The position numbers and the translations under genes are program-made. Below, piece after piece: positions 33,795-58,123 of a stretch of DNA of 64,000 bases. This DNA comes from Patescibacteria group bacterium (GTDB taxonomy: Bacteria; Patescibacteriota; Minisyncoccia; Phycocordibacterales; Phycocordibacteraceae). Below the pieces are notes generated by a model that ran no database searches, was not told where the DNA came from, and saw only the letters and a list, made by a program, of their open reading frames with translations. The stretch's first letter is position 1, and each line of letters begins with the position of its first letter. The stretch covers positions 282,176 to 346,175 of the forward strand of contig JAIETW010000001.1 of assembly GCA_019744845.1 (NCBI GenBank), written 5' to 3'.

Positions 33795-33854
33795 ACGTCT
33801 ATGTGGTTATGTACTAAGTATATACCTGATGCTATAGTGCTCCTGGAATTATTA

Positions 33855-33946
33855 GTATCCAGAGCGCGACGAGGGATCTGGCCCTTTGACTCGCCGGCAA
33901 CCTGTAAAAATACAAGGTGCCTCCAGCCCCGTATGGGGGACGATAC
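33855..33946 (+). promoter_or_regulatory. SAM-I (S-box) riboswitch in the metK leader
   Basis: GUAUCCAGAGCGCGACGAGGGAUCUGGCCCUUUGACUCGCCGGCAACC...GGUGCCUCCAGC...GAUAC matches the S-box consensus (AUCaAGAG.GG.GGAGGGA.UGGCCC.AUGA..CCGGCAACC...GGUGC.A.UCCAGC). A P1 helix GUAUC/GAUAC closes it. Confidence 0.65.
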
Positions 33947-33956
33947 CTACTATCTA

Positions 33957-39933: not shown

Positions 39934-39958
39934 AGGGCGAGTATACCGCAGAACTTCT

Positions 39959-40034
39959 TGGAGCCACCTCCCGGGATTGAACCGGGGACCTCTTCGTTAC
40001 GAGTGAAGTGCTCTACCAACTGAGCTAAGGTGGC
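39959..40034 (-). tRNA. tRNA-Thr (anticodon CGT), CCA encoded
   Basis: Acceptor GCCACCT/AGGTGGC, D-arm GCTCAGTTGGTAGAGC, anticodon loop CTCGTAA, variable AGGTC, T-arm CCCGGTTCAATCCCGGG, 3' TCCA. Confidence 0.8.
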
Positions 40035-40102: not shown

Positions 40103-40696
40103 ATGATCCCTACTGATTTTACATTCGTAGGAAAGCATTACGCGGCACGTACGCATGAAAAGATGCGCGAGGTGCTTATGAACCCAGACGCACCGGGACC
40201 AGAGGTGCACTACTACATGATTCGTGGCGGGGAGACGCAGCGAAACATCACCGTCTGGGAGCCAGGGCTGGTCGGCGGTGAATACATTAAGACCTACGGC
40301 CACTACCATGTGGGAGAACTTGATGAGACCTATTGGATTATTTTTGGAGAAGGACTCATCCTCAAACAAAAGATGACGAATGATCCGACCGTGGTTGAAG
40401 AGTTCTCTATCACCCGCGTCACTCAGGGCGACAGTGTCTTTCTCGCTCCTGGATACGGACACCTCGCCATCAACATTGGTTCTACCTTCTTTGTCACTGC
40501 GGATGACAGTCCTGTGCGTTTTGATGATCCCGATCCTGCAGGGCTTCCCGGACACGCAGACTACGAGCCCGTACGAAAGATGCGCGGGTTTGCGTACTAT
40601 GTGATTGAACAGAATGGTGGACCTGCTCTCGTCCGCAATACGAACTACGCCGCAATACGAAAAGAAGACCTTGCAGGTCTTCTTGTTGTGAAATAA
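40103..40696 (+). CDS. Cupin-type glucose-6-phosphate isomerase (archaeal-type cPGI family)
   Basis: KTYGHYH...GEGLILKQ...APGYGHLAINIG aligns with Pyrococcus cPGI (TKGHFH...GKGGMLLQ...PPYWAHRTVNIG): metal-binding His and Glu within a cupin fold. Confidence 0.6.
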   Translation: MIPTDFTFVGKHYAARTHEKMREVLMNPDAPGPEVHYYMIRGGETQRNITVWEPGLVGGEYIKTYGHYHVGELDETYWIIFGEGLILKQKMTNDPTVVEEFSITRVTQGDSVFLAPGYGHLAINIGSTFFVTADDSPVRFDDPDPAGLPGHADYEPVRKMRGFAYYVIEQNGGPALVRNTNYAAIRKEDLAGLLVVK

Positions 40697-40700
40697 ACAC

Positions 40701-40851
40701 TTGGAGACCCTATTAAACTCCGTTAGAACCCATTTTGCAAAGGAGCCCTGATTACTCGCGCCTCGCAGACTCGGCGCTCGCCCCGACCCCGGTCCGCACT
40801 GAAATCCTTTTCTTTTTTCGCGGGGGGAATCCAAAAATCCGGGCTCGGAGC
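40701..40851. repeat. Repeat X, inverted copy (attR-like: X arm + CTCCA + cPGI 3' end)
   Basis: 150 bp, the near-perfect reverse complement of 45021..45161. It ends in gggtCTCCA, abutting the cPGI stop. Confidence 0.85.
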
Positions 40852-40950
40852 GGCAGGGCTCGGGGGTAGCCCAAAATACCCAGTGGTCTCGTGTCTGTTT
40901 TTATCCGCTTTGAATCGTCCCTGACTAAAGAGATTCACCCCTCGGCATCC

Positions 40951-41253
40951 GCCTCGGGGCTGTTTCCGCTATGGCTACGAAGGCCTAGATTTCTCTGTGC
41001 CGCCTTTTTCCTTGCTCTCCGCCCTGCGGGGCGGGAGCTTCGGGGCGGCTTCCAGTTTGGGGGAAGGAAGTTATCCTTCCCCCAGCTTCGGCCTCCTCCT
41101 CGTTCCTTCGGAGTCCGGCCTCGCACAACCCCCATCCTCGTTTGCATACGCGAGTGTTCGTTGTGTCGCTTCCGCTTCGGGATACGGTGCCTCCGGTGTT
41201 CGTCGGCCTTCGTCCTTTAGCCATGGACGCTCATAGCGGAAACAGCCCCGAGG
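40951..41253 (+). other. GC-rich ~300-bp noncoding element with 23-bp perfect terminal inverted repeat and multiple C(UUCG)G tetraloop hairpins (candidate structured RNA or MITE)
   Basis: gcctcggggctgtttccgctatg at 40951 is the reverse complement of catagcggaaacagccccgaggc at 41231. The interior holds a 10-bp perfect hairpin (gggggaagga/tccttccccc) and four cttcgg motifs. Only spurious high-GC ORFs overlap it. Confidence 0.4.
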
Positions 41254-41317
41254 CAAATACATAATGCTTGCCCCTCCCACCCGTGCGCGCATACCGCCTA
41301 GCAGAACGGCGGGCTCC

Positions 41318-41686
41318 CTAAGAACGACGCAGCTGCTTATATACAAACCAGCCCAGGGGTATGAAAAACAGAGATGTAATGAGGCCGGGAGAGTAGGCTT
41401 GATCCGCAAATGCGGTAAACGGATGAGACAGTTCGATTACGCAGAAAACTAAAAGAACGAACCACAGTATTTTTGCTTTTGGATTTTCACGAATCTTGTA
41501 CAAAAGGTACAGGAAAATAAAGACCACTACTTGCACCAACAACCAAACAATTACTTGCGGGAGAAAAAGAGTTTCTGAAAACCATTTAAGAATAGTGTCA
41601 GTTCGATGGAATCCAGACAGATATTCTTCAACGGCGTGGGCCAGGAATAAAAACGCGGCAAGAGCAAGGATAACGGTCTTATTCAT
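41318..41686 (-). CDS. HXXEE-domain membrane protein
   Basis: LAHAVEEYL HXXEE motif in the first TM region. Four TM helices. Confidence 0.5.
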   Translation of the reverse strand: MNKTVILALAAFLFLAHAVEEYLSGFHRTDTILKWFSETLFLPQVIVWLLVQVVVFIFLYLLYKIRENPKAKILWFVLLVFCVIELSHPFTAFADQAYSPGLITSLFFIPLGWFVYKQLRRS

Positions 41687-41689
41687 AAG

Positions 41690-42127
41690 TTAGTGTTTAA
41701 CCAAATATGCTAGTTGCTCAGCTGATAAAATTTCTGAGATCGGATACAAGAATAAGAATCTTGGATCATATGGCTCACGTTTCTGAGATAAATCGACCGA
41801 AATACCTTTACCTTTCAAATACTGTATTGCGGCATTTACTGCCTTCAACTCTTCATCACGACGAAATGAGGTGGAGAAGATGTATTGCAGTGCGAATTTA
41901 AAAGGACCCTTCTTTTGCTCGCGCCTATGTTCCTCCTCATGAACTAGCAGGGCTTGAAAGGTTATTTCTGGGTTTTCACTGTGTAGATTTTCGTAGATTG
42001 ATTCTGGCAAGAATATGTATGGATAAATTGAATAAGCAACCTTCTTTCTAAGAAAGAATCTCAAGGAGCTCGGGGTTTTTCGCACATACCGAGGTAATTC
42101 CATTGCTCTCAATAGTACACTCCTCAT
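41690..42127 (-). CDS. Hypothetical protein with HEEEH (HExxH-like) motif
   Basis: LLVHEEEHRRE. Possible minimal zinc-metallopeptidase-like fold. No other support. Confidence 0.3.
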   Translation of the reverse strand: MRSVLLRAMELPRYVRKTPSSLRFFLRKKVAYSIYPYIFLPESIYENLHSENPEITFQALLVHEEEHRREQKKGPFKFALQYIFSTSFRRDEELKAVNAAIQYLKGKGISVDLSQKREPYDPRFLFLYPISEILSAEQLAYLVKH

Positions 42128-42157
42128 ATCAAAAAGCCCCTTTCGGGGCTTTTTGAT

Positions 42158-42784
42158 CTAGAGAAGAATCAGGAGTAATCCTGCTAACGCCGCCATGCCG
42201 AAGTCCTCGATGAGAGTGATCTTCGTTAGCGGAACTTTGAGGAAAGTTCCGAGGCACGCGCACATGAATTCTTCCTTCTTCGCTATCTTGATCGCAACTC
42301 CGATACCGCTGAAAAGCATCACGACGAGTTCCGTCCACAAGAGCCACGCATCGTGAATACCCGCGAGCATCAGGAGACCGAACGCGAGTTCTATGAACGG
42401 GTAGATATACCCGTAGGAAGACCAGCGACTTGCAAGGAGGTCATAGGTTGAGTACCCCTCCGCAAATCCCTTGAGGTCTAGGAACTTGAATCCCGCGAAG
42501 ACGAGGAAGAATCCTGCCATGAAGTACCCGATAGTGTTCGGGAGTGCGAATTCTCCGTTCGCATAATCTCCCCACGAAGCCGCAAGCGTGCCCGCGATGA
42601 GGAGCCCGAAGATAACCATGAGCGGGATATAACTCTTCCAAGTTATCGGCCCGAGGCCTCGGTCTTCAATGTGTCGTTTTGGGGTTGCGATTACTTCCGC
42701 TTCCGGTACGAGCGCCATGTGGCACTTCGGGCATCGCCCCGGCCCTTCTTGTCGCACTTCAGGATGCATTGGACAGGTATACAT
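42158..42784 (-). CDS. Heavy-metal-binding domain (CPMHPE...CPKC) fused to MauE/DoxX-like membrane domain
   Basis: N-terminal MYTCPMHPEVRQEGPGRCPKCHMAL (HMBD/YHS-like Cu-site). Membrane domain with FMCACLGTF, characteristic of MauE/DoxX redox proteins. Confidence 0.6.
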   Translation of the reverse strand: MYTCPMHPEVRQEGPGRCPKCHMALVPEAEVIATPKRHIEDRGLGPITWKSYIPLMVIFGLLIAGTLAASWGDYANGEFALPNTIGYFMAGFFLVFAGFKFLDLKGFAEGYSTYDLLASRWSSYGYIYPFIELAFGLLMLAGIHDAWLLWTELVVMLFSGIGVAIKIAKKEEFMCACLGTFLKVPLTKITLIEDFGMAALAGLLLILL

Positions 42785-42786
42785 GG

Positions 42787-43278
42787 CTATATCGCTTCAT
42801 AACTGATAATGACTTTCTCTTTGTCTTTGAGCACGGTGTTTTCGTAGGTGTCCACTTCCTTGCCATCCACCAGAACCTTAATCCGGTGAGTCTCGTCCGT
42901 TTTGTACCCGAGGATTTCTTCGCTCGTGAACGGCTCTCCCCACACCGCGAAGAAGTCGGCGAGCGTGAAGTCGCGCCGTTCCGGCGATTCCACATGAATT
43001 GTTCCTATCGCATCGTGCGTATGAAGAGCGTTCATGCAGTCAGTACGCACACCAATATTCACGGGTATCTCCTGTATCTGCCCGTTCACGACTATTTCAA
43101 GCGTCGGATGAATGTGGAACTCAGTCGCCATATCCGTCGTACAAGTCAGAGCGACTTCCCTGTTCGTGCGTTCGGTCTTTATGGGTTCTTGCTCTCCTCG
43201 CGTGAAGAGGACGAAGAGCAGGATGAGTGCCGATATGCCGAAGACGATTGCGATGTTCGTCTTCATACTATCCTTCAC
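42787..43278 (-). CDS. Hypothetical exported His-rich protein
   Basis: Signal anchor. HIHPTLEIVVNG and ALHTHDAIGTIHVE His motifs (candidate metal ligands). Confidence 0.35.
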   Translation of the reverse strand: MKDSMKTNIAIVFGISALILLFVLFTRGEQEPIKTERTNREVALTCTTDMATEFHIHPTLEIVVNGQIQEIPVNIGVRTDCMNALHTHDAIGTIHVESPERRDFTLADFFAVWGEPFTSEEILGYKTDETHRIKVLVDGKEVDTYENTVLKDKEKVIISYEAI

Positions 43279-43364
43279 GCAAGGCTTGCTCTATCGACTC
43301 ATACGGCTGCGCGCCCGAGAACAGGGTGAGATACTTCTCCAGCGTCGAGTTCATGGTCGGTTTT

Positions 43365-43757
43365 TTACTCAGTTCCGTACCACGCCTTCTGCCACTCTTT
43401 CATCTGCGCGATTTCTGCATTCTGTGCCGAGATGATGGCGTTCGCCATTGCCTTTATCTCTGCGTGCTTCGCATCCTTAAGTGCCGCTTCTGCCATCGCG
43501 ACTGCTCCTTCGTGATGCATGATCATCTCCGAGAGAAACGCCTTATCAAAGGCATCCCCCGTCTTTCCAGAAAGACCCATCATCATAGAGTCCATTTCGC
43601 CCTCCATGCCGGATGACATGGAACCAGACATCATGTTTCCGTCCGGCATCATGTGCCCGTTCTGTTGCTCGGGAGCAGTTTTCCCTACAAATGCATAGGT
43701 GCCAAGACCCCCGATAATAAGAGATACAAGTGCGACGAGAACGATATTTTTTTGCAT
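43365..43757 (-). CDS. DUF305 family protein with Met-rich segment
   Basis: MIMHHEGAVAMAE matches the DUF305 HH-x-GA motif. Preceded by MMPDGNMMSGSMSSGMEGEMDSMMMG (Met-rich, Cu(I)-binding-like). Start at MQKNIV. Confidence 0.6.
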   Translation of the reverse strand: MQKNIVLVALVSLIIGGLGTYAFVGKTAPEQQNGHMMPDGNMMSGSMSSGMEGEMDSMMMGLSGKTGDAFDKAFLSEMIMHHEGAVAMAEAALKDAKHAEIKAMANAIISAQNAEIAQMKEWQKAWYGTE

Positions 43758-43799
43758 AGGTTTTGAATCAAAGCGAATAAGCGCACGAAAACGCGGCAC

Positions 43800-44162
43800 T
43801 TAGTACGCTTTTGAATTCAGGAGTCCTTGCGCGAACAGTTCTTGAAAGAGTGTCGGTCGAGCCGCGTATGTAGGTGGCGGAGGCGACCATTCGTTCCGGC
43901 GAGGAAGAAGGTACGCAAAGCCAATCGTTGCAATGACAGCAAGGTATGGAAGCGAATCAACGAGCGTAGTCGTGAACGCACTTTGCCAATGCTCTATGTG
44001 ATCGAACACGCTCATGGCGCAGATGGACATCTGTCCCTGCATGAACGGACAGCCGATGTCGTGATTCTCGGACATGGAGAGAAGCGTGAACGGCCCGAGC
44101 ACGACCATCACAAAGACGGCGGCAGTGAGCCCTATGGAGACAAATACCTTCCTGATAGCCAT
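43800..44162 (-). CDS. Hypothetical membrane protein with CPF...C motif
   Basis: Two TM helices. GCPFMQGQMSIC. Confidence 0.3.
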   Translation of the reverse strand: MAIRKVFVSIGLTAAVFVMVVLGPFTLLSMSENHDIGCPFMQGQMSICAMSVFDHIEHWQSAFTTTLVDSLPYLAVIATIGFAYLLPRRNEWSPPPPTYAARPTLFQELFAQGLLNSKAY

Positions 44163-44251
44163 GTATGTATTATACCGCGCAAGTCAAGGGCGCGGAATTA
44201 TACCCCCTCATGCGTACTTCATACCTTCTTAACTAGGATTATACTTAGGAT

Positions 44252-44704
44252 ATGAATCACAGCCCCTACCCGCGCTTTGCCCTGATGATTCTGCTTTCGT
44301 TCGTCGCGATGTACATCCTTATGTTTTCAATGGCGAACGTGTTTGCGAATGTGTATCCGAGCTTCAATCAACTCTACATGGCAGGGCTTATGACCGCGCC
44401 CATGGTGCTGTTTGAAATATTCCTTATGGGCGCTATGTACCAGAACAAGAAACTTAACCTCGCGATTGTTGCTGTGGCGCTACTCGCGCTCATCGGCTTC
44501 TTTTTCGCGATTCGCTACCAAGTGGGCATATCGGACGAGGAATTTCTAAAATCAATGATTCCTCACCATGCTGGGGCAATCCTTATGTGTGAAAAGGCCT
44601 CGATTGATGACCCGGATATCAAGGAACTATGTAGCGGTATTCTCTCTGGGCAACAGTCAGAGGTGGATTGGATGAAAGCAAAACTGAGTGAATTAGAAAA
44701 ATAA
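44252..44704 (+). CDS. DUF305 family membrane protein
   Basis: MIPHHAGAILMCE DUF305 motif after three TM helices. Confidence 0.55.
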   Translation: MNHSPYPRFALMILLSFVAMYILMFSMANVFANVYPSFNQLYMAGLMTAPMVLFEIFLMGAMYQNKKLNLAIVAVALLALIGFFFAIRYQVGISDEEFLKSMIPHHAGAILMCEKASIDDPDIKELCSGILSGQQSEVDWMKAKLSELEK

Positions 44705-44721
44705 ACAATTAATTCAAAAAT

Positions 44722-44943
44722 ATGAAATTATCAAAACCAATGCATGTTATTAGTGTCATAGTTGGACTTGTTGGGATTGGCACATTAATTGCGGCAACTG
44801 TTGCCGGACAAAGTAATTTGGTGTTTGGATTTACTCGGGAGCATTTACTCTTTTGTTCCATCATTGTCTTTCTCGTAGCAATCTGGCTTCAGATTGCCAC
44901 CATCCATCATATGATGCTTGAGAAGCGCGGAGAGGTGGTCTAA
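44722..44943 (+). CDS. Small membrane protein, hypothetical
   Basis: 73 aa, two TM helices. Confidence 0.3.
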   Translation: MKLSKPMHVISVIVGLVGIGTLIAATVAGQSNLVFGFTREHLLFCSIIVFLVAIWLQIATIHHMMLEKRGEVV

Positions 44944-45020
44944 CTAACGGTCTGCAACTAGTTAGCCGATACAGCAAGAGATAATCTAGTTAAAAAATTC
45001 CTCGCCCTGCCGCTCCTTGC

Positions 45021-45310
45021 CGGATTTTTGGATTCCCCCCGCGAAAAAAGAAAAGGATTTCAGTGCGGACCGGGGTCGGGGCGAGCGCCGAGTCTGCGAG
45101 GCGCGAGTAATCAGGGCTCCTTTGCAAAATGGGTTCTAACGGAGTTTAATAGGGTCTCCAAAATCGAAATCAGCCCAGTTTTTCCCGAATGCATTTTTGC
45201 GCAGTGCAATTCCCGCCAAGGGAGTTCAGGGATTCCGCGCGCTTCGCGCGCGTGGAGGGAGGTTCAGAAATACAGAATCCGAAAATTTTCTGGAGGGAGG
45301 ATTTTTTATT
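45021..45310. repeat. Repeat X+Y contiguous (attP-like: X arm, CTCCA at 45156-45160, Y arm)
   Basis: 45021-45161 is the reverse complement of 40701-40851. 45156-45307 is the reverse complement of 48683-48825, about 95% identical with one small indel. Confidence 0.85.
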
Positions 45311-45393
45311 CCTTGTGTGCTTGCCCCACCCTTCCCGTGCGCGCACACGAGCCCTTTCGCTAAAAACGCTGTAATTAGCGAAACTCCCTCCTA

Positions 45394-46683
45394 TTACTTC
45401 AGAAGATCATCCAGTTCACTGGATAGTAAAGCAGATTTATTGAGCAAAATCTCCTCTTTCTGATTCAGATTCTCAGCAGTCATTCTAATGACTTTCGTAC
45501 GGATTATGTTGCCTAAAATAATGTTCCCGGTTTTATCTAGATATTTCCTTGTTTTCCTTGCAAACAAAGTCGCATACTGTCGCAATTTCTCTTCAGAAGC
45601 AGGATGGGAGCTTGAGCCGTTGGCGCCAAACTCTATTTTATTATCAAGCGATATATCTCGCTCAGTTGGCAAGTCTCCGTCGCGGAAGTGGATCCAATAC
45701 TCACTAATTGCATACTGAACATGTACGGGTTCCCCTTCTTCGGTTGAGTAGTCGTAACTAAAGAAAAACGTATCCGTACGGAAATCCTGAAATACGCGAA
45801 TGTGTTCAAGTGAACGAACCTTCCTAATTCCATAACTATCCAGAAGGCGAAGATAACTCTCGCGCCAGTTTGTAAGCCAATTTGTAACGAAGGTCTGATT
45901 TACGAACAGCGGGCTTAGATCCTGCTTAAGGTTTTCGTCGCTCACTTTATTCATCTGAAGAGTGAGCTTGTCGAACAGTGCGCGCGGGTCTTTCACGTCA
46001 ATGCCTTTCGCAATCAGATAATCAAAATCAGGAACAACTTTCTTAGTCATATACCAGAGCAAATCATAGATATCTCTTCCCTTTTCTTCATATGTAGCCT
46101 GTCCAACCCCCCTTGTTCCGCGTAGGAAAATTGCAGCAATTTTACTAGCCATCAGTGAAGACATGTTGTAGGTGAGAATGACGAATGACATTTGGTCGCG
46201 GTTAATCGGCCTACGCTCCGTCACAGTCTTTGGGGCAACAAAATGATTTAGGTCTATTTTTACGTGAATCTGTTTTGAAGGATGTCCCGAGCTCAAATCG
46301 TCTCCAACAATAAACCTGAGCAACAACCCTCTACCGGTAGTTACTTTGATGGTAAGAAAGTCGCTACCGGCGCCATATGTATTAGCAAAATACTCTTCCA
46401 CCTCACTCTTTAGACTTTCCAAGAACTTTTCTGTGATTGAATGACCTACCTCAAAATCCAAATCAACAGACATACGATCTAGCCCGTGGATGATGCGAAG
46501 AGCGGAACCGCCGTACATGACCCATTTGCTGTATTCGGGATGGTGATAGACAAAGTCGAGAACAAAATACTGAAGCTCTTCTTTAAGCGCATTTCGACGT
46601 GTTTCCGCATCCAAGCCACCGTAAGCGGAAAGTTCTTCAAGTTTTCTTTTCAAGATTGTTACGATCTGTTCACTCATAGACAT
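45394..46683 (-). CDS. AbiEii/AbiGii-family nucleotidyltransferase toxin (type IV TA / abortive infection)
   Basis: VMYGGSALRIIHGLDRMSVDLDFEV matches the AbiEii GG(S/T)AL...R.S.DLDF signature. At 429 aa it is longer than typical. Overlaps the upstream antitoxin gene by 14 nt. Confidence 0.75.
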   Translation of the reverse strand: MSMSEQIVTILKRKLEELSAYGGLDAETRRNALKEELQYFVLDFVYHHPEYSKWVMYGGSALRIIHGLDRMSVDLDFEVGHSITEKFLESLKSEVEEYFANTYGAGSDFLTIKVTTGRGLLLRFIVGDDLSSGHPSKQIHVKIDLNHFVAPKTVTERRPINRDQMSFVILTYNMSSLMASKIAAIFLRGTRGVGQATYEEKGRDIYDLLWYMTKKVVPDFDYLIAKGIDVKDPRALFDKLTLQMNKVSDENLKQDLSPLFVNQTFVTNWLTNWRESYLRLLDSYGIRKVRSLEHIRVFQDFRTDTFFFSYDYSTEEGEPVHVQYAISEYWIHFRDGDLPTERDISLDNKIEFGANGSSSHPASEEKLRQYATLFARKTRKYLDKTGNIILGNIIRTKVIRMTAENLNQKEEILLNKSALLSSELDDLLK

Positions 46684-47287
46684 ACGCTTTTATCATGTCA
46701 TTAAATTTCTGCTGTTCACTAATTTCCATTTCTTCAAAATCTATTCTAAGTTCGTTAATTATTTTTGGTATTTCATTACGACGAACACCACGAAACTGAC
46801 GTGTCCTGAAATATAGCAAGTCAAACAATGCTTTCGAGGGAGAGGCGATAAAGAAATTAAACTTCCCTTCCATAAGTGAGTAGTCAGAAAAGAGTTCTTT
46901 TTTAATTGACTGATACGAAAATGTCCCAGCTTTTGTTTCGTAATCTCTGGTCACCTTAAGTGAGACTGACGTAACTGAGCGAATAACCTCTGTAGTGAGA
47001 TTGTAATACTGAAGTGCCGTCCACGAGCTTATGTACGATGGCTTCCGAAGGATGTTCGCAAGGTAGTAAAGATACGAAATTTCACTTTTGTTTTTTTCAA
47101 AGAAGTCTCCCGAAATATATAGGCCATTTTTAAGCGCAAGAATTTCCCTCCGCTTAAGAAAACGGCTTACATAGGTGTTAATTGTGCTCTTTTTGAGGCC
47201 TAGCTGATCAGCAAGCTGAAAAACTGTATTTTTGCTGAAATGAGGTAGAGCCTTGAGCTGTTCTATTAGATTGCTCTTGCTTTTCAT
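46670..47287 (-). CDS. AbiEi-like antitoxin/transcriptional regulator (wHTH)
   Basis: About 200 aa, N-terminal winged-HTH-like region, immediately upstream of and overlapping AbiEii. Canonical AbiE operon order. Confidence 0.6.
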   Translation of the reverse strand: MKSKSNLIEQLKALPHFSKNTVFQLADQLGLKKSTINTYVSRFLKRREILALKNGLYISGDFFEKNKSEISYLYYLANILRKPSYISSWTALQYYNLTTEVIRSVTSVSLKVTRDYETKAGTFSYQSIKKELFSDYSLMEGKFNFFIASPSKALFDLLYFRTRQFRGVRRNEIPKIINELRIDFEEMEISEQQKFNDMIKAYVYE

Positions 47288-47328
47288 AAATATGACACTA
47301 GTGTATTATATATGAAATAAGAAGTCAA

Positions 47329-48900
47329 TTGGCTATGAAATACTTCCTATACGCCCGCAAAAGCACCGACACAGAGGACAAACAGGTTCTCTCTATTGAG
47401 GCGCAACTAGCCGAATTGCGCTCCCTCGCCCGTCGTGATGGGCTAGAAATCGCTGAGGAGTTTGTAGAAAAGCGGAGCGCGAAATCGCTTGGTCGTCCCG
47501 TGTTCGGCGAAATGATGACGCGCATCCAAAACGGTGAGGCACAAGGAATACTCTGTTGGAAGATAGATCGCCTCGCACGTAATCCTGTAGACGGTGGACA
47601 GATTCAGTGGCTACTTCAACAAGGCGTGATTCGCCATATCCAAACGCACGACCGCTCCCACTTTCCGAACGACAATGTGCTGATGATGTCGGTAGAACTC
47701 GGCATGGCGAACGAATATATACGCCAACTCTCCGCAAACACCGCACGGGGATTACGACAGAAAGCGCGAACGGGCGTGTACCCCGGTCTCGCCCCTATCG
47801 GCTACCTAAACGACCCACGCACGAAAACTATCCGCACTCACAAAAAGAACTCTGTACTTGTGCGTGAAATGTTTGAGCGGTACGCGAACGGAAACACAAC
47901 ACTAAACGATCTCGCGCTCTTTCTTGAAAACTCTGGGGTGATTTCTAAGGGCAGTAAGCGCGTAAATATTTCGCGTGTCTCGTTTGTTTTGCAGAACCCT
48001 TTTTACTACGGCCATTTCCGCTACGCGGGCGAAGTATATGAGGGTAAGCACGAGCCGATCATCACGAAAGCGTTATACGACAAAGCGAATACGGTACTGC
48101 GAAGCCGTGGCCGAACTCCGGCCTCTAAAGCCGTTCCTAGCCCCTATTGTGGCCTCCTACGCTGTGGCGAGTGCGGTATGGGCATCACGGCCGAAGTGAA
48201 GGAAAAGCACCAAAAGAACGGCAATGTCCACCACTACACCTACTACCGTTGTACCCGTAAATCTAAAACTCAAAAGTGCAAAGAAGCGCCGATACGAAGC
48301 GAACTTCTTGATTCGCAACTAACGGCACTTCTAGGCGAGTACACGATGCCTGCCGAGTGGGTGTCCCCTCTAAACGAAATGCTCAACCGCGAGGCGACTA
48401 TGGCCTCACAGACCGCATCAGGGGCGATTTTTGAACTACGAGCAAAAGCGGAAGATATATCGCGCCAACTTTCTCGCCTCACGGATTTGTATGTGGCGGA
48501 AGATTTGGAGCGCGATGACTATCTTGCTCGCCGAAAGTCCCTCGTGTCCGACAAGCGGACGCTAGACGAGAAAATCGCCAAACTTGAACAAGCCCCTTCG
48601 GCTTGGGTTGAACCTGTTAGGGAATGGATTTCGGACGCTTCGCGCCTGGGTGAAATCGCAAAGTCCGAAGACCCGCATTCCAAAAAATCCTCCCTCCAGA
48701 AAATTTTCGGACTGAACCTCTCCCTCCACGCGCGCGAAGCGCGCGGAATCCCTGAACTCCCTTGGCGGGAATTGCACTGCGCAAAAATGCATTCGGGAAA
48801 AACTGGGCTGATTTCGATTTTGGAGCCGATGTCCGGGATTGAACCGGAGACCTCGTCCTTCGCTTACACTCTCGCTTCTTGCATGCGCGCGAAAGGCTAG
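47329..48900 (+). CDS. Large serine recombinase (integrase); annotated 3' end uncertain
   Basis: YARKSTDTEDKQ catalytic Ser motif, resolvase domain, recombinase domain, zinc ribbon CGLLRCGECG...YYRC and coiled-coil. The last ~85 codons run through repeat Y and the tRNA. Confidence 0.8.
   Translation: MAMKYFLYARKSTDTEDKQVLSIEAQLAELRSLARRDGLEIAEEFVEKRSAKSLGRPVFGEMMTRIQNGEAQGILCWKIDRLARNPVDGGQIQWLLQQGVIRHIQTHDRSHFPNDNVLMMSVELGMANEYIRQLSANTARGLRQKARTGVYPGLAPIGYLNDPRTKTIRTHKKNSVLVREMFERYANGNTTLNDLALFLENSGVISKGSKRVNISRVSFVLQNPFYYGHFRYAGEVYEGKHEPIITKALYDKANTVLRSRGRTPASKAVPSPYCGLLRCGECGMGITAEVKEKHQKNGNVHHYTYYRCTRKSKTQKCKEAPIRSELLDSQLTALLGEYTMPAEWVSPLNEMLNREATMASQTASGAIFELRAKAEDISRQLSRLTDLYVAEDLERDDYLARRKSLVSDKRTLDEKIAKLEQAPSAWVEPVREWISDASRLGEIAKSEDPHSKKSSLQKIFGLNLSLHAREARGIPELPWRELHCAKMHSGKTGLISILEPMSGIEPETSSFAYTLASCMRAKG
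48683..48825. repeat. Repeat Y, inverted copy (attL-like: tRNA-Thr 3' end + CTCCA + Y arm)
   Basis: Reverse complement of 45156-45307. The CTCCA core is nt 72-76 of tRNA-Thr(GGT). Confidence 0.85.
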
Positions 48901-49074
48901 ACTGTATCTTTATCCTAACGGATACCCTTGTCAGTCGTTCGGGCGATATCTCGCCACGGTCTTGTCTCGCATGAGATATTAACCGTTATTCGGGATTCAC
49001 CTACACATTGCTGCATAAGTGGGCAGGGTCTGCGACCCACCATGGACGCGCTCTACCAACTGAGCTACATCGGC
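48821..49074 (-). tRNA. tRNA-Thr (anticodon GGT) split by a 178-nt group-I-like intron in the anticodon loop; CCA encoded
   Basis: 5' exon GCCGATGTAGCTCAGTTGGTAGAGCGCGTCC-ATGGT; 3' exon AA-GGACG-AGGTC-TCCGGTTCAATCCCGGA-CATCGGC-T-CCA. The exons are near-identical to E. coli tRNA-Thr(GGU). The anticodon stem halves CGTCC/GGACG lie 185 nt apart. Confidence 0.65.
48861..49038 (-). ncRNA. Group-I-like intron in tRNA-Thr(GGT), inserted after anticodon nt 36
   Basis: The 5' exon ends in U. The intron ends in G (GTGTAAGCG|AA). P7-like pairing CGACTGACAAGG...AGATACAGTCTAGCC resembles Tetrahymena CAGACUAAAUG...AGAUAUAGUCGGACC. Confidence 0.5.
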
Positions 49075-57747: not shown

Positions 57748-57806
57748 AGTTGAATGGTATCACTCGTGAACGAAGAAAAGCGCCACTGGCGCTTTTCTAT
57801 ATCTTG

Positions 57807-58123
57807 TTGCGGGGGCCGGAATCGAACCGGCGTCTGGAGGTTCTTTTACACCTTCTGTTTCCAGAAGGAATGGACTATCCCATAATCCTGACGGATTCTC
57901 CCATTATAGTCTCTGAACCTTCCCCGAATGTACTCGAGGCTTGGCTGCTGATTGCCGAATCTTTTTGTTTTTCAAACCGTCGCATCCATCCTTTCGGATC
58001 ACGCTGTGGTACAAAAAGCTCTAACGGTGTTCCAGCAATTTAGAGAGTTTTTCCACTACCCGTTGCCGGATAGGGTCACGTTTACCACATGAGCCTCCCG
58101 AGGTACCTCTCCTCTACCCCGCG
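57807..58123 (-). tRNA. Initiator tRNA-fMet (anticodon CAT) split by a 246-nt group-I-like intron after anticodon nt 36
   Basis: 5' exon CGCGGGGTAGAGGAGAGGTACCTCGGGAGG-CTCAT, nearly identical to E. coli tRNA-fMet including the C1xA72 mismatch and A11:U24. 3' exon AA-CCTCC-AGAC-GCCGGTTCGATTCCGGC-CCCCGCA-A. Confidence 0.7.
57843..58088 (-). ncRNA. Group-I-like intron in tRNA-fMet
   Basis: The 5' exon ends in U. The intron ends in G (GGTGTAAAAG|AA). GGTTCAGAGACTATAATGGG...GGATAGTCCATTCC resembles the Tetrahymena J6/7-P7 segment AGUUCACAGACUAAAUG...GAUAUAGUCGGACC. Confidence 0.55.

What the first reader, a model, noticed from the sequence alone, without database searches (positions are those of the whole stretch)
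40951..41253. GC-rich ~300-bp noncoding element with 23-bp terminal inverted repeat and four C(UUCG)G tetraloops
A 23-bp perfect IR (gcctcggggctgtttccgctatg / catagcggaaacagccccgaggc), extendable to ~35 bp with bulges, encloses ~220 bp. The interior holds a 10-bp perfect hairpin gggggaagga-agtta-tccttccccc and repeated cttcgg motifs (UUCG tetraloops closed by C-G), all on the plus strand. Only spurious high-GC ORFs overlap it. The element sits just inside the left end of the mobile element, next to repeat X. It could be a structured ncRNA carried by the element or a MITE. I could not match it to RNase P, tmRNA, 6S, SRP or a group II intron.
Basis: seen in the sequence. Interest (0 to 1): 0.6.

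Follow-up and report, generated by a model that had tools for sequence, protein, structure and literature searches.

The report
Core of novel large structured RNA
The GC-rich 300-bp hairpin-rich stretch is real and is the central domain of an apparently undescribed, heavily base-paired noncoding module of about 0.62-0.75 kb, conserved in more than 130 loci of Patescibacteria (CPR bacteria), where it sits at one end of tRNA-targeting serine-recombinase genomic islands; it is most likely a new class of large structured RNA.

Summary
The 23-bp perfect inverted repeat (40951-40973 / 41232-41254) and the inner hairpin are real and far beyond chance. The element is not a MITE and not noise. It is the core of a larger conserved module, window ~40701-41320: repeat X, then the core, then a "tail".

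I found the module in 17 loci from 15 Patescibacteria MAGs and in 113 metagenome contigs. There were none in viral contigs, phage or plasmid records, and no Rfam 15 family matches.

On 35 non-redundant homologues, 54 of 170 predicted pairs change on both sides (shuffles 27.4 +/- 2.8, 0/500). Spacing between invariant blocks varies by 1-2 nt, so it is not coding.

The module begins exactly at a TTGGAG core shared with tRNA 3' ends. That core marks one end of an 8.1-kb large-serine-recombinase island (40701-48825) inserted at an intron-containing tRNA gene.

Only one of four CTTCGG motifs is conserved, and it lies in an invariant 10-nt loop.

The strand leans minus. Oddly, G.U pairs are no commoner than A.C mismatches on either strand, so a folded-DNA role remains a live rival.

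Best reading: a new large structured RNA of a mobile island, similar in context to ROOL and GOLLD. Its function is inferred only.

The parts
40701..41320 (-). Whole conserved structured module (X domain + linker + core + tail). The minus strand is the probable transcript strand, but this is not proven.
   Evidence: nhmmer with window 40700-41340 finds 127 loci, many covering query 3-625. The alignment is A2. Covariation: 54 of 170 pairs change on both sides. Strand clues are; a counter-clue is.
40701..40706 (.). TTGGAG core at the outer edge of X. Inferred crossover core of the left junction (chromosomal flank | X).
   Evidence: The same hexamer is the 6-bp overlap of inverted repeats I1 and I2 at 45156-45161 (CTCCAA). 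It also abuts tRNA 3' ends at 48820-48825 and 39958-39963.
40701..40866 (.). X domain: a hairpin-rich end of the module. A 98-100% identical inverted copy lies at 45004-45161.
   Evidence: Inverted repeat I1 is 142 nt at 100%, or 159 nt at 98%. The hairpin 40758-40765 / 40770-40777 covaries (helix 2). Similar X/X' pairs lie 2.5-9.4 kb apart in at least 12 other loci.
40951..41254 (.). Core domain (the finding itself): a closing helix of 25 + 7 bp around a multi-helix interior.
   Evidence: In helices 17 and 18, 9 pairs change on both sides and 97.6-98% of cells are paired.
40951..40985 (.). 5' strand of the closing helices. 40951-40975 pairs with 41229-41254, and 40979-40985 pairs with 41205-41211.
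   Evidence: For example, column pair 486-719 is AU:17 / GC:17 and pair 477-743 is UA:23 / GC:9.
40999..41049 (.). Branch with a variable covarying hairpin: 40999-41004 / 41044-41049 and 41018-41024 / 41029-41037.
   Evidence: Helices 20 and 22. All 7 pairs of helix 22 change on both sides.
41058..41084 (.). 11-bp hairpin GGGGGAAGGA / TCCTTCCCCC.
   Evidence: In helix 24, GC<->AU swaps occur at two adjacent pairs in 6-7 sequences.
41090..41120 (.). Helices 41090-41093 / 41117-41120 and CUCC/GGAG (41096-41099 / 41110-41113) around the invariant loop TCGTTCCTTC. This loop holds the only conserved CTTCGG.
   Evidence: Helices 26 and 27. Pair 605-622 is CG:24 / AU:11, and the loop is identical in 35/35 sequences.
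41121..41204 (.). Mostly unpaired region with invariant blocks (TCGCACAACCCC, CCTCGTTT, GTGTCGCTTCCGCT) followed by a variable stretch.
   Evidence: Invariant columns. No supported pairing was found.
41255..41320 (.). Tail module: GCTTGCCCC, then (in most homologues) an inserted covarying hairpin, then CCCGTGCGCGCA containing the palindrome GTGCGCGCAC, then a variable hairpin, ending at (G/A)CTCCCT against the stop codon of the HXXEE gene.
   Evidence: In helix 34, 9 of 10 pairs change on both sides.
45004..45161 (.). X': inverted copy of X at the far end of the 4.2-kb cargo segment.
45156..45307 (.). Y': inverted copy of the 3' coding end of the recombinase gene. It meets X' head to head at the CTCCAA core, giving an internal attP-like junction.
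   Evidence: Inverted repeats I2 and I4; sequence; 92% identity over 154 nt including a gap.
45319..45395 (.). Orphan copy of the tail module with no core, abutting the stop codon of AbiEii.
   Evidence: (D3). Similar orphan tails occur in L019, L020, L110, L056, L064 and L072.
47329..48900 (+). Large serine recombinase gene. Its last ~80 nt overlap the tRNA gene.
   Evidence: Pfam Resolvase 4e-22, Recombinase 1.5e-14, Zn_ribbon_recom 8e-9. Homologues lie in the same relative position in 13 loci.
48682..48825 (.). Y arm, ending in TTGGAG at the tRNA 3' end (right junction).
48821..49074 (-). Target tRNA gene (ARAGORN calls it Arg-GCG) with a 178-nt intron at position 34/35.
   Evidence: ARAGORN with introns allowed. 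It is missed.

Best explanation
The 304-bp element is the central domain of a conserved, heavily base-paired noncoding module of about 620 nt (650-750 nt in most relatives). This module is a backbone part of a family of genomic islands in Patescibacteria. The islands are moved by a large serine recombinase and insert at the CCA end of tRNA genes. In the window the island spans 40701-48825, and the module occupies the end farthest from the recombinase, starting exactly at the TTGGAG crossover core.

I read the module as a new class of large structured RNA. Inferred steps: it is most probably made from the minus strand as the last part of the island's leftward transcript, after the cargo genes. 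In relatives it follows two winged-helix genes and often an island-borne tRNA-Arg. It would be trimmed by tRNA-processing enzymes and by a double-strand-specific RNase at the ~35-bp closing helix. It would then persist as a stable folded RNA serving the island, alone or with the winged-helix proteins, and possibly self-associating through the invariant palindrome GUGCGCGCAC. In this it would resemble the large ROOL and GOLLD RNAs that phages carry next to tRNA genes.

Shown here: conservation, covarying structure, absence of coding, position at the island end, and the link with recombinase, tRNAs and winged-helix genes. Inferred only: transcription, strand, processing and function.
For: Conservation:
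- An exact 20-mer of the repeat arm hits 17 loci in 15 Patescibacteria MAGs.
- An internal 28-base pattern that does not include the arms hits 113 metagenome contigs and 0 viral contigs.
- nhmmer defines the unit as window 40701-~41320 in 127 loci.

Structure:
- RNAalifold on 13 sequences gives 19 pairs with compensatory changes.
- On 35 sequences, 92.6% of cells are paired. 54 pairs change on both sides against 27.4 +/- 2.8 in shuffles (0/500). The covariation score is 0.131 against ~0.04 when partners are slid by 1-3 columns.

Not coding: 1-2-nt length changes occur between invariant anchors.

Not a known family: no Rfam 15 hit, and nothing in four targeted literature searches plus two on related topics.

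Island context:
- The TTGGAG core occurs at 40701, 45156 (inverted) and 48820 next to tRNA 3' ends.
- The recombinase domains are confirmed.
- L026 has the same architecture with a different tRNA.
- L083 has a direct recombinase-Y.X-module junction.
- Cargo varies: metal-related genes, AbiE, type III restriction-modification.

Minus-strand lean:
- All 29 tRNAs within 1.5 kb are co-directional with the minus strand, and 11 abut the tail.
- 96 of 113 nearest tail-side ORFs are co-directional.
- Two winged-helix genes end 14-60 nt before the tail in 40 loci.
- Unpaired positions are A 37%, G 26%, U 20%, C 17% on the minus strand.
- The minus strand folds better in 36 of 40 homologues.

ROOL and GOLLD are described as encoded in phages and prophages, often near tRNA islands (PMC12286853).
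Against: - No transcription data could be examined.
- The helices show no wobble tolerance. In 14 well-supported helices there are 3290 Watson-Crick cells, 50 G.U and 50 A.C on the plus strand. The counts are therefore the same viewed from the minus strand, and no higher than any other mismatch type. By contrast, 47 tRNAs from the same loci carry 5% G.U. This is unusual for an RNA.
- Hairpin loops of two helices (AGGAA; AAGA/AGUA/AUUA) are A-rich on the plus strand, against the minus-strand call.
- Co-orientation with tRNAs could simply follow from the polarity of insertion at tRNA genes.
- The consensus scan found no promoter-like site anywhere in the module. Its only terminator-like matches inside the module are two overlapping weak plus-strand hairpins at 41137-41156, and the total found was at the level of shuffles.
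- The X part also doubles as an arm of the recombination site, and its inverted copy is kept 97-100% identical. That is a DNA-level property.
Confidence: 0.55

Rival explanations
1. The module works as DNA, not RNA. It would be a folded single-stranded (or protein-bound palindromic) region next to the recombination site. Possible roles are a priming or replication site for the excised circle, an accessory region for recombination or inversion, or an array of operators for the two winged-helix proteins.
For: - Strictly Watson-Crick helices, with G.U equal to A.C on both strands (against 62).
- It starts exactly at the crossover core.
- Its X part is duplicated as a 97-100% identical inverted repeat that behaves in concert within each locus.
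- Both inversion isomers of the X..X' segment occur in nature.
- No replication protein was seen among the ORFs checked against Pfam (only representative ORFs were scanned).
- DNA-binding winged-helix genes lie next to it in 40 loci.
- There is an invariant 10-bp palindrome, GTGCGCGCAC.
Against: - Serine recombinases act on short double-stranded sites and need no 600-bp structured region (established knowledge).
- A stem whose arms lie 258 nt apart cannot form as a cruciform, and no single-strand-generating enzyme (relaxase, rolling-circle Rep, HUH transposase) was seen among the ORFs scanned.
- Operators normally keep their half-site sequence, whereas these stems change sequence and keep only the pairing.
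- Composition of unpaired positions and gene order look like a transcribed RNA gene.
Confidence: 0.25
2. It is an RNA read from the plus strand. In the excised circle (or in a tandem copy) the recombinase gene runs directly into X, the core and the tail. The module would then be a long structured 3' untranslated region that appears only when the island is out of the chromosome, and would tune recombinase expression.
For: - A direct recombinase-Y.X-module junction exists in L083.
- Inverted Y'.X junctions occur in the window, L026 and L130.
- Read by eye, X has GC-rich hairpins followed by a T-rich run on the plus strand.
- The A-rich loops of helices 24 and 34 are on the plus strand.
Against: - The plus strand is C/U-rich (A only 11% in the core) and its unpaired positions are U/C-rich, which is atypical for structured RNAs.
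- It folds less well in 36 of 40 homologues.
- A tRNA gene on the other strand abuts the tail in 11 loci.
- The terminator scan did not flag X.
Confidence: 0.15
3. It is a chromosomal housekeeping RNA gene of these lineages (as tmRNA or tRNA genes are) that islands merely use as a landing site.
For: - Very high sequence conservation across several orders.
- It sits in or next to tRNA gene clusters, co-directionally.
- It is usually one copy per MAG.
Against: - Its outer edge is joined to the recombinase arm in circle-like junctions (L083; window 45156).
- One MAG carries two diverged copies.
- Neighbouring genes are variable defence or cargo genes.
- Related genomes carry it at different tRNA genes.
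- IS insertions and internal deletions are tolerated.
- Its size and sequence fit no housekeeping RNA family.
Confidence: 0.07
4. It is a MITE, that is, a short non-autonomous transposon bounded by the 23-bp inverted repeat.
For: A perfect terminal inverted repeat, ~300 bp in size, non-coding.
Against: - One copy in the 64-kb window, and one (once two) per MAG in 15 MAGs.
- No direct repeat flanks the arms (GGCATCC on the left, AAATACA on the right).
- Sequence outside both arms is conserved together with the element in all loci.
- No homologue lacks precisely the 304 bp. The only internal deletion seen, in L055, removes a different segment.
- The arms covary, as a helix would.
Confidence: 0.02

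Closest known systems
ROOL RNA (Rfam RF03087) and GOLLD RNA (RF01998)
   Same: Large (~0.6-0.8 kb), multi-helix noncoding RNAs of unknown function carried by mobile DNA and typically found beside tRNA genes (PMC12286853). Here the module is ~0.62-0.75 kb, lies in a mobile island, abuts a tRNA gene in 11 loci and lies within 40 nt of one in several more. A conserved GC-rich palindrome could mediate self-association, as kissing loops do in those RNAs (inference).
   Different: No sequence or structure match to either model. The host is Patescibacteria, and the carrier is a serine-recombinase island rather than a phage (0 hits in viral contigs and phage records). The helices lack G.U pairs. One end doubles as a recombination-site arm and is repeated in inverted form.
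OLE and raiA RNAs (large structured bacterial RNAs of unknown or partly known function)
   Same: Size class, many conserved helices, invariant single-stranded blocks.
   Different: Those are chromosomal genes of Bacillota or Actinomycetota with fixed gene neighbourhoods. There is no model match here, and the context is a mobile island.
ColE1-type primer RNA II with its origin
   Same: A ~550-nt highly folded RNA encoded in cis on a mobile replicon that needs no replication protein of its own (my own knowledge). The islands here show no Rep gene among the ORFs scanned.
   Different: No sequence similarity. No antisense partner or origin features were tested or seen. This is purely an analogy.
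Folded single-stranded recombination sites (integron attC; CTX-phage attP)
   Same: Function depends on strict intrastrand pairing of DNA, so stems covary without wobble pairs (my own knowledge). They lie at cassette or element ends.
   Different: Those sites are 60-150 nt and serve tyrosine recombinases acting on single strands. Here the module is ~620 nt beside a large serine recombinase, which acts on duplex sites.
MITEs / Correia / REP-type palindromic repeats
   Same: Short, non-coding, terminal inverted repeat, hairpin-forming, located after a gene's 3' end.
   Different: Single copy, no target duplication, and the repeat is not the unit boundary.
Yeast 2-micron plasmid architecture
   Same: A mobile replicon divided into two arcs by a pair of long, identical inverted repeats, each holding a site for the element's own recombinase, with both flip isomers found (my own knowledge of 2-micron; for the island).
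   Different: Different recombinase class (serine against tyrosine). Inversion by the recombinase is not shown here. This concerns the island, not the 304-bp element itself.

Membership tests
MITE | Many dispersed copies per genome | tested here: not met
   One copy in the window. Among 15 MAGs, 14 have one locus and one has two.
MITE | Target-site duplication flanking the terminal inverted repeats | tested here: not met
   The flanks GGCATCC and AAATACA differ.
MITE | Terminal inverted repeats mark the edge of the mobile or conserved unit | tested here: not met
   Conservation continues ~250 nt to the left and ~65 nt to the right of the arms in all loci.
Known RNA families (RNase P, tmRNA, 6S, SRP, group I/II introns, ROOL, GOLLD, OLE, raiA, HEARO and all others in Rfam 15) | Match to the family covariance model | tested here: not met
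   No hit over the element at gathering score, at E<=10 on 40600-41500, or at E<=1 in ten homologous loci. ARAGORN finds no tmRNA.
Structured noncoding RNA (generic) | Conserved secondary structure supported by compensatory changes | tested here: met
   54 pairs change on both sides against 27.4 +/- 2.8 in shuffles (0/500). The covariation score is 0.131 against ~0.04 for slid partners.
Structured noncoding RNA (generic) | G.U wobble pairs tolerated on the transcribed strand far more than A.C | tested here: not met
   50 G.U against 50 A.C in 3584 cells of 14 supported helices. tRNAs of the same loci have 51 G.U per 1006 stem pairs.
Structured noncoding RNA (generic) | Transcribed, with defined ends | not testable with these tools
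   No expression data are available. The consensus promoter and terminator scan is uninformative.
Structured noncoding RNA (generic) | Not protein-coding | tested here: met
   Distances between invariant anchors take all values mod 3 in 73 distinct sequences. Gene callers placed no gene there in L004.
   Two motifs are GCTCGG in most homologues, one is in a variable stretch, and one is inside an invariant 10-nt loop.
Large-serine-recombinase integrative element (the island that carries it) | Recombinase with resolvase, recombinase and zinc-ribbon domains | tested here: met
   Pfam PF00239, PF07508 and PF13408.
Large-serine-recombinase integrative element (the island that carries it) | Element ends share a short core with the target site (here a tRNA 3' end) | tested here: met
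   TTGGAG at 40701-40706 and at 48820-48825 next to the tRNA. The same hexamer lies at the unoccupied tRNA-Thr end 39958-39963.
Large-serine-recombinase integrative element (the island that carries it) | Excised circle junction and empty target site exist | tested here: inconclusive
   A direct Y.X junction occurs in L083 at a contig start, which could be a circle or a tandem copy. No empty site was examined.

The most novel reading that the evidence does not exclude
The module is the only universally conserved backbone part of an undescribed family of CPR genomic islands that carry two inverted copies of their own attachment site and flip their halves. It would act without a dedicated protein, either as a self-assembling RNA particle (ROOL/GOLLD-like) or as an RNA- or folded-DNA-based replication or priming device that lets the excised circle persist. 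The strict absence of wobble pairs would then reflect a need for both the RNA and its DNA template (or both strands) to fold.
Probability: 0.15. Interest if true: 0.85.

Novelty: new member of a known kind. Interest (0 to 1): 0.7.

Why it matters
Large, highly structured bacterial RNAs are rare. Each new class found so far (RNase P, group II introns, OLE, ROOL, GOLLD) has revealed unusual biochemistry.

This one is about 0.62-0.75 kb and has more than a dozen covariation-supported helices. It is absent from Rfam 15 and comes from Patescibacteria, whose mobile elements and noncoding RNAs are almost unexplored.

It is also the best-conserved part of a family of tRNA-targeting serine-recombinase islands that carry defence and metal-related cargo. 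That makes it a ready marker for finding such islands in CPR genomes. It may also explain why CPR assemblies break at these points: 61 of 127 contigs end within 100 nt of it.

The lack of wobble pairs makes it a useful test case for telling RNA structure from folded-DNA structure by comparative analysis.

Tried and rejected
- **Phage and plasmid records.** blastn of the element found no match.
- **Viral contigs.** An 18-mer of the arm gave three hits, but they lie in unrelated coding sequence and match only 21-25 nt, so they are chance. The internal pattern gave 0 viral hits.
- **Rfam.** Nothing at gathering score or at permissive E-values.
- **Strand from wobble pairs.** Inconclusive, 53 against 65 and then 50 against 50.
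- **Strand from hairpin-loop types.** Mixed; there is no consistent GNRA or UNCG pattern on either strand.
- **tRNA-like or tmRNA-like 3' end.** I considered that the minus-strand end (...CUCCA) might be one. About half of the homologues lack CCA there, no T-arm can be drawn, and ARAGORN finds nothing. The CCA-like end is better explained as the recombination core shared with tRNA genes.
- **RNase P, SRP or 6S identity.** Conserved motifs compared by eye do not match.
- **Terminal pairing of the whole 620-nt unit.** Not supported by the alignment fold.
- **Promoter and terminator scan.** At background level.
- **Contigs bounded by X at both ends as linear replicons.** Rejected. Their ends fall at variable depth inside X, as expected from assembly breaks at an inverted repeat.
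- **Literature.** Six searches found no description.
- **Covariance model of the core.** Not built, because 304 positions exceed the feasible calibration time.
Full report
**1. The observation**

The sequence at 40951-41254 contains a perfect 23-nt inverted repeat, 40951-40973 / 41232-41254. With up to three mismatches it occurs only as this pair in the 64-kb window, against zero expected in shuffles. The pairing continues inward to 25 bp and then 7 bp (40979-40985 / 41205-41211), with a small side hairpin between them. The inner hairpin is 11 bp, 41058-41068 / 41074-41084. Four CTTCGG strings are present. G+C is 62% against about 50% around it. Both strands fold far better than shuffles, z = -8.1 and -10.7. 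The physical description is therefore right, apart from an end coordinate one base short.

**2. What surrounds it**

The window comes from a Patescibacteria (CPR) genome. All related loci are Paceibacteria, Kaiserbacteria, Taylorbacteria, Parcubacteria or "Saccharibacteria" MAGs.

- To the left lie ftsX, ftsE, prfB, tRNA-Thr(CGU) at 39959-40034, and a cupin-type glucose-6-phosphate isomerase.
- To the right is a minus-strand run of small metal-related genes (HXXEE, HMBD-MauE, DUF305), then a plus-strand DUF305 gene and an AbiEii/AbiEi pair.
- A 523-aa large serine recombinase follows, at 47329-48900.
- With introns allowed, ARAGORN finds a tRNA gene at 48821-49074 (minus strand) carrying a 178-nt intron. 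The recombinase ORF runs into its 3' half.

Repeat X (40701-40842, extending to ~40866) has a 98-100% identical inverted copy at 45004-45161. The last ~145 nt of the recombinase gene (Y, 48682-48825) have an inverted copy at 45156-45307. The two inverted copies meet head to head and overlap by six bases.

That hexamer is TTGGAG, the reverse complement of the ...C-U-CCA-A end of a tRNA gene. It lies at the outer edge of X (40701-40706), at the X'/Y' junction (45156-45161, inverted), at the Y/tRNA junction (48820-48825), and at the unoccupied end of tRNA-Thr (39958-39963).

I infer that 40701-48825 is one serine-recombinase island inserted at the CCA end of the intron-bearing tRNA gene. X and Y would be the two arms of its attachment site, with a second, inverted copy of that site kept inside.

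Three loci support this reading.
- L026 has the same architecture at tRNA-Arg(UCU), with a recombinase 71% identical in DNA.
- L083 has the direct junction recombinase-Y.X-module expected of an excised circle or a tandem copy.
- L130 has the opposite flip isomer of the X..X' segment.

Independent short-read assemblies of the same population are 100% identical to the window and break exactly in X.

**3. Relatives**

Phage and plasmid records have nothing similar. An exact 20-mer of the arm finds 17 loci in 15 MAGs. One MAG carries two diverged copies, one of them split over two contigs. A 28-base internal pattern that does not include the arms finds 113 metagenome contigs and no viral contig.

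blastn and nhmmer show that the conserved unit is larger than the finding. It begins at the outer edge of X (window 40701). It runs through a linker and the 304-bp core, and ends in a "tail" at ~41320, flush with the stop codon of the HXXEE gene.

The tail reads GCTTGCCCC, then an optional inserted hairpin, then CCCGTGCGCGCA, then a variable hairpin, then (G/A)CTCCCT. Most relatives carry two extra hairpins, which makes the unit 650-750 nt. An orphan copy of the tail alone follows Y' at 45319-45395, and orphan tails occur in six other loci.

**4. Is it structure, and is it coding?**

- On 13 genome sequences, RNAalifold predicts 77 pairs, 19 of them with compensatory changes.
- On 35 non-redundant full-length sequences, the predicted structure has 170 pairs with 92.6% of cells paired.
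- Of those pairs, 54 change on both sides, against 27.4 +/- 2.8 in column shuffles (0 of 500 reach the observed value).
- The covariation score is 0.131, against 0.073 for shuffles and ~0.04 when partners are slid by 1-3 columns.
- The closing helix, the 11-bp hairpin, the variable hairpin at 41018-41037, the CUCC/GGAG helix, the tail hairpin and hairpins in X all carry clean GC<->AU or GC<->CG swaps.
- Distances between invariant blocks vary by 1-2 nt and take all residues mod 3 in 73 distinct sequences, so no reading frame is conserved.

The structure is real and the element is noncoding.

**5.

Two of the four CTTCGG motifs read GCTCGG in most homologues, and one lies in a variable stretch. 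The only invariant one sits inside an invariant 10-nt loop (UCGUUCCUUC on the plus strand) closed by a covarying 4-bp helix. They are not UUCG tetraloops and give no evidence for the plus strand.

The MITE idea fails on every defining feature. There are one or two copies per genome and no target duplication. The inverted repeat is internal to the conserved unit, and its arms covary like a helix.

**6. Which strand, and RNA or DNA?**

*Clues for the minus strand.*
- All 29 tRNA genes within 1.5 kb of the module are co-directional with it. In 11 loci a tRNA (ten Arg-UCU, one Lys-UUU) abuts the tail.
- 96 of 113 nearest tail-side ORFs are co-directional.
- In 40 loci two winged-helix genes end 14-60 nt before the tail, with the tRNA, when present, between them and the module.
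- Unpaired positions are A 37%, G 26%, U 20%, C 17% on the minus strand, a profile I regard as typical of structured RNAs (own knowledge).
- The minus strand folds better in 36 of 40 homologues.

*Clues against the minus strand.* Two hairpin loops are A-rich on the plus strand. tRNA co-orientation may also simply reflect the polarity of insertion.

*The main anomaly.* In 14 well-supported helices there are 3290 Watson-Crick cells, 50 G.U and 50 A.C. Neither is commoner than other mismatch types. The 47 tRNAs in the same loci have 5% G.U. Neither strand therefore shows the wobble tolerance expected of an RNA. This keeps a folded-DNA or duplex-DNA function alive, especially because X doubles as a recombination arm and is homogenised with its inverted copy.

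*Points against a pure DNA role.* Serine recombinases need only short duplex sites. A stem with arms 258 nt apart cannot extrude as a cruciform. None of the island ORFs scanned encodes a single-strand-generating enzyme. The stems change sequence while keeping pairing, unlike operators.

**7. Best explanation and rivals**

I conclude, with confidence about 0.55, that the finding is the core domain of a new class of large structured RNA belonging to the backbone of tRNA-targeting serine-recombinase islands of Patescibacteria. It is probably read from the minus strand at the end of the island's leftward transcript and processed at the flanking tRNA and at the long closing helix.

Its role is inferred only. 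I propose a stable RNA serving the island, by analogy with ROOL and GOLLD, which are also large, ornate, of unknown function and encoded on mobile DNA next to tRNA genes (PMC12286853).

Rivals:
- a DNA-level recombination, replication or operator structure (0.25);
- a plus-strand 3' untranslated region of the recombinase that forms only in the excised state (0.15);
- a housekeeping RNA gene used as a landing site (0.07);
- a MITE (0.02).

**8. Novelty**

No Rfam 15 family matches the window or ten homologues. Six full-text searches found no description. I rate it a new member of a known kind, namely large structured RNAs of mobile elements. The lack of wobble pairs and the double role of one end as a recombination arm leave room for something more unusual.

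Noticed in passing
window 48821-49074 (-): A tRNA gene (ARAGORN: Arg-GCG) interrupted by a 178-nt intron at position 34/35. Default ARAGORN misses it, and Rfam does not recognise the insert as a group I intron. The recombinase ORF overlaps its 3' half, and it is the inferred insertion target of the island.
   Followed up: partly
window 57806-58123 (-): tRNA-Met(CAT) gene with a 246-nt intron. This is the Rfam group I intron hit at 57851-58100 (71 bits). It fits the recent report of group I introns in Patescibacteria tRNA genes (PMC13011429).
   Followed up: partly
window 40701-40866 / 45004-45161 and 45156-45307 / 48682-48825: Two nested pairs of long inverted repeats, 92-100% identical, meet head to head at a shared 6-bp core. 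Within a locus the copies are 97-100% identical, but between loci only 70-90%. Both flip isomers occur in different loci (window and L026 against L130).
   Followed up: partly
window 45319-45395: An orphan copy of the 'tail' module (GCTTGCCCC..CCCGTGCGCGCAC..hairpin..ACTCCCT) with no core, directly after the stop codon of AbiEii. Similar orphans occur in L019, L020, L110, L056, L064 and L072.
   Followed up: partly
L010 5997-7009, L130 6564-8743 and 38 other loci: Two winged-helix genes in tandem (~98 aa, and ~170-230 aa with a Pro/Thr-rich N-terminus; HTH_24 / DUF977 / DeoR-like) end 14-60 nt before the module's tail. In 11 loci a tRNA (mostly Arg-UCU) lies between them and the module.
   Followed up: partly
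alignment A2, helices in window 40758-41254: Helices are strictly Watson-Crick. G.U pairs (50) are no commoner than A.C mismatches (50) on either strand, whereas tRNAs from the same loci have 5% G.U.
   Followed up: yes
L043 1-131, L115 1-127, L117; L055 5836-6365: Natural disruptions of the module. An IS-like insertion replaces everything left of the window-equivalent ~41088 in three contigs. L055 has a clean internal deletion of the equivalent of 40976-41089.
   Followed up: partly
metagenome loci L027-L139: 61 of 127 contigs end within 100 nt of the X side of the module, and several contigs are bounded by X at both ends. X is a frequent assembly break point in CPR metagenomes.
   Followed up: partly
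window 33852-33949 (+): SAM-I riboswitch (Rfam 56 bits) upstream of the S-adenosylmethionine synthetase gene. This is ordinary.
   Followed up: no
window 40662-40684: A 10-bp hairpin just outside X, at the 3' end of the cupin-type glucose-6-phosphate isomerase gene. It is a terminator-like site on the minus strand and would end any minus-strand transcript leaving the module.
   Followed up: no
window 45394-47287 (-) and 41318-44704: Island cargo. An AbiEii toxin with an AbiEi-like partner, and a set of small metal-related genes (HXXEE, HMBD-MauE fusion, two DUF305). In relatives the cargo is instead type III restriction-modification, a LexA-methylase fusion, or DUF5677.
   Followed up: partly
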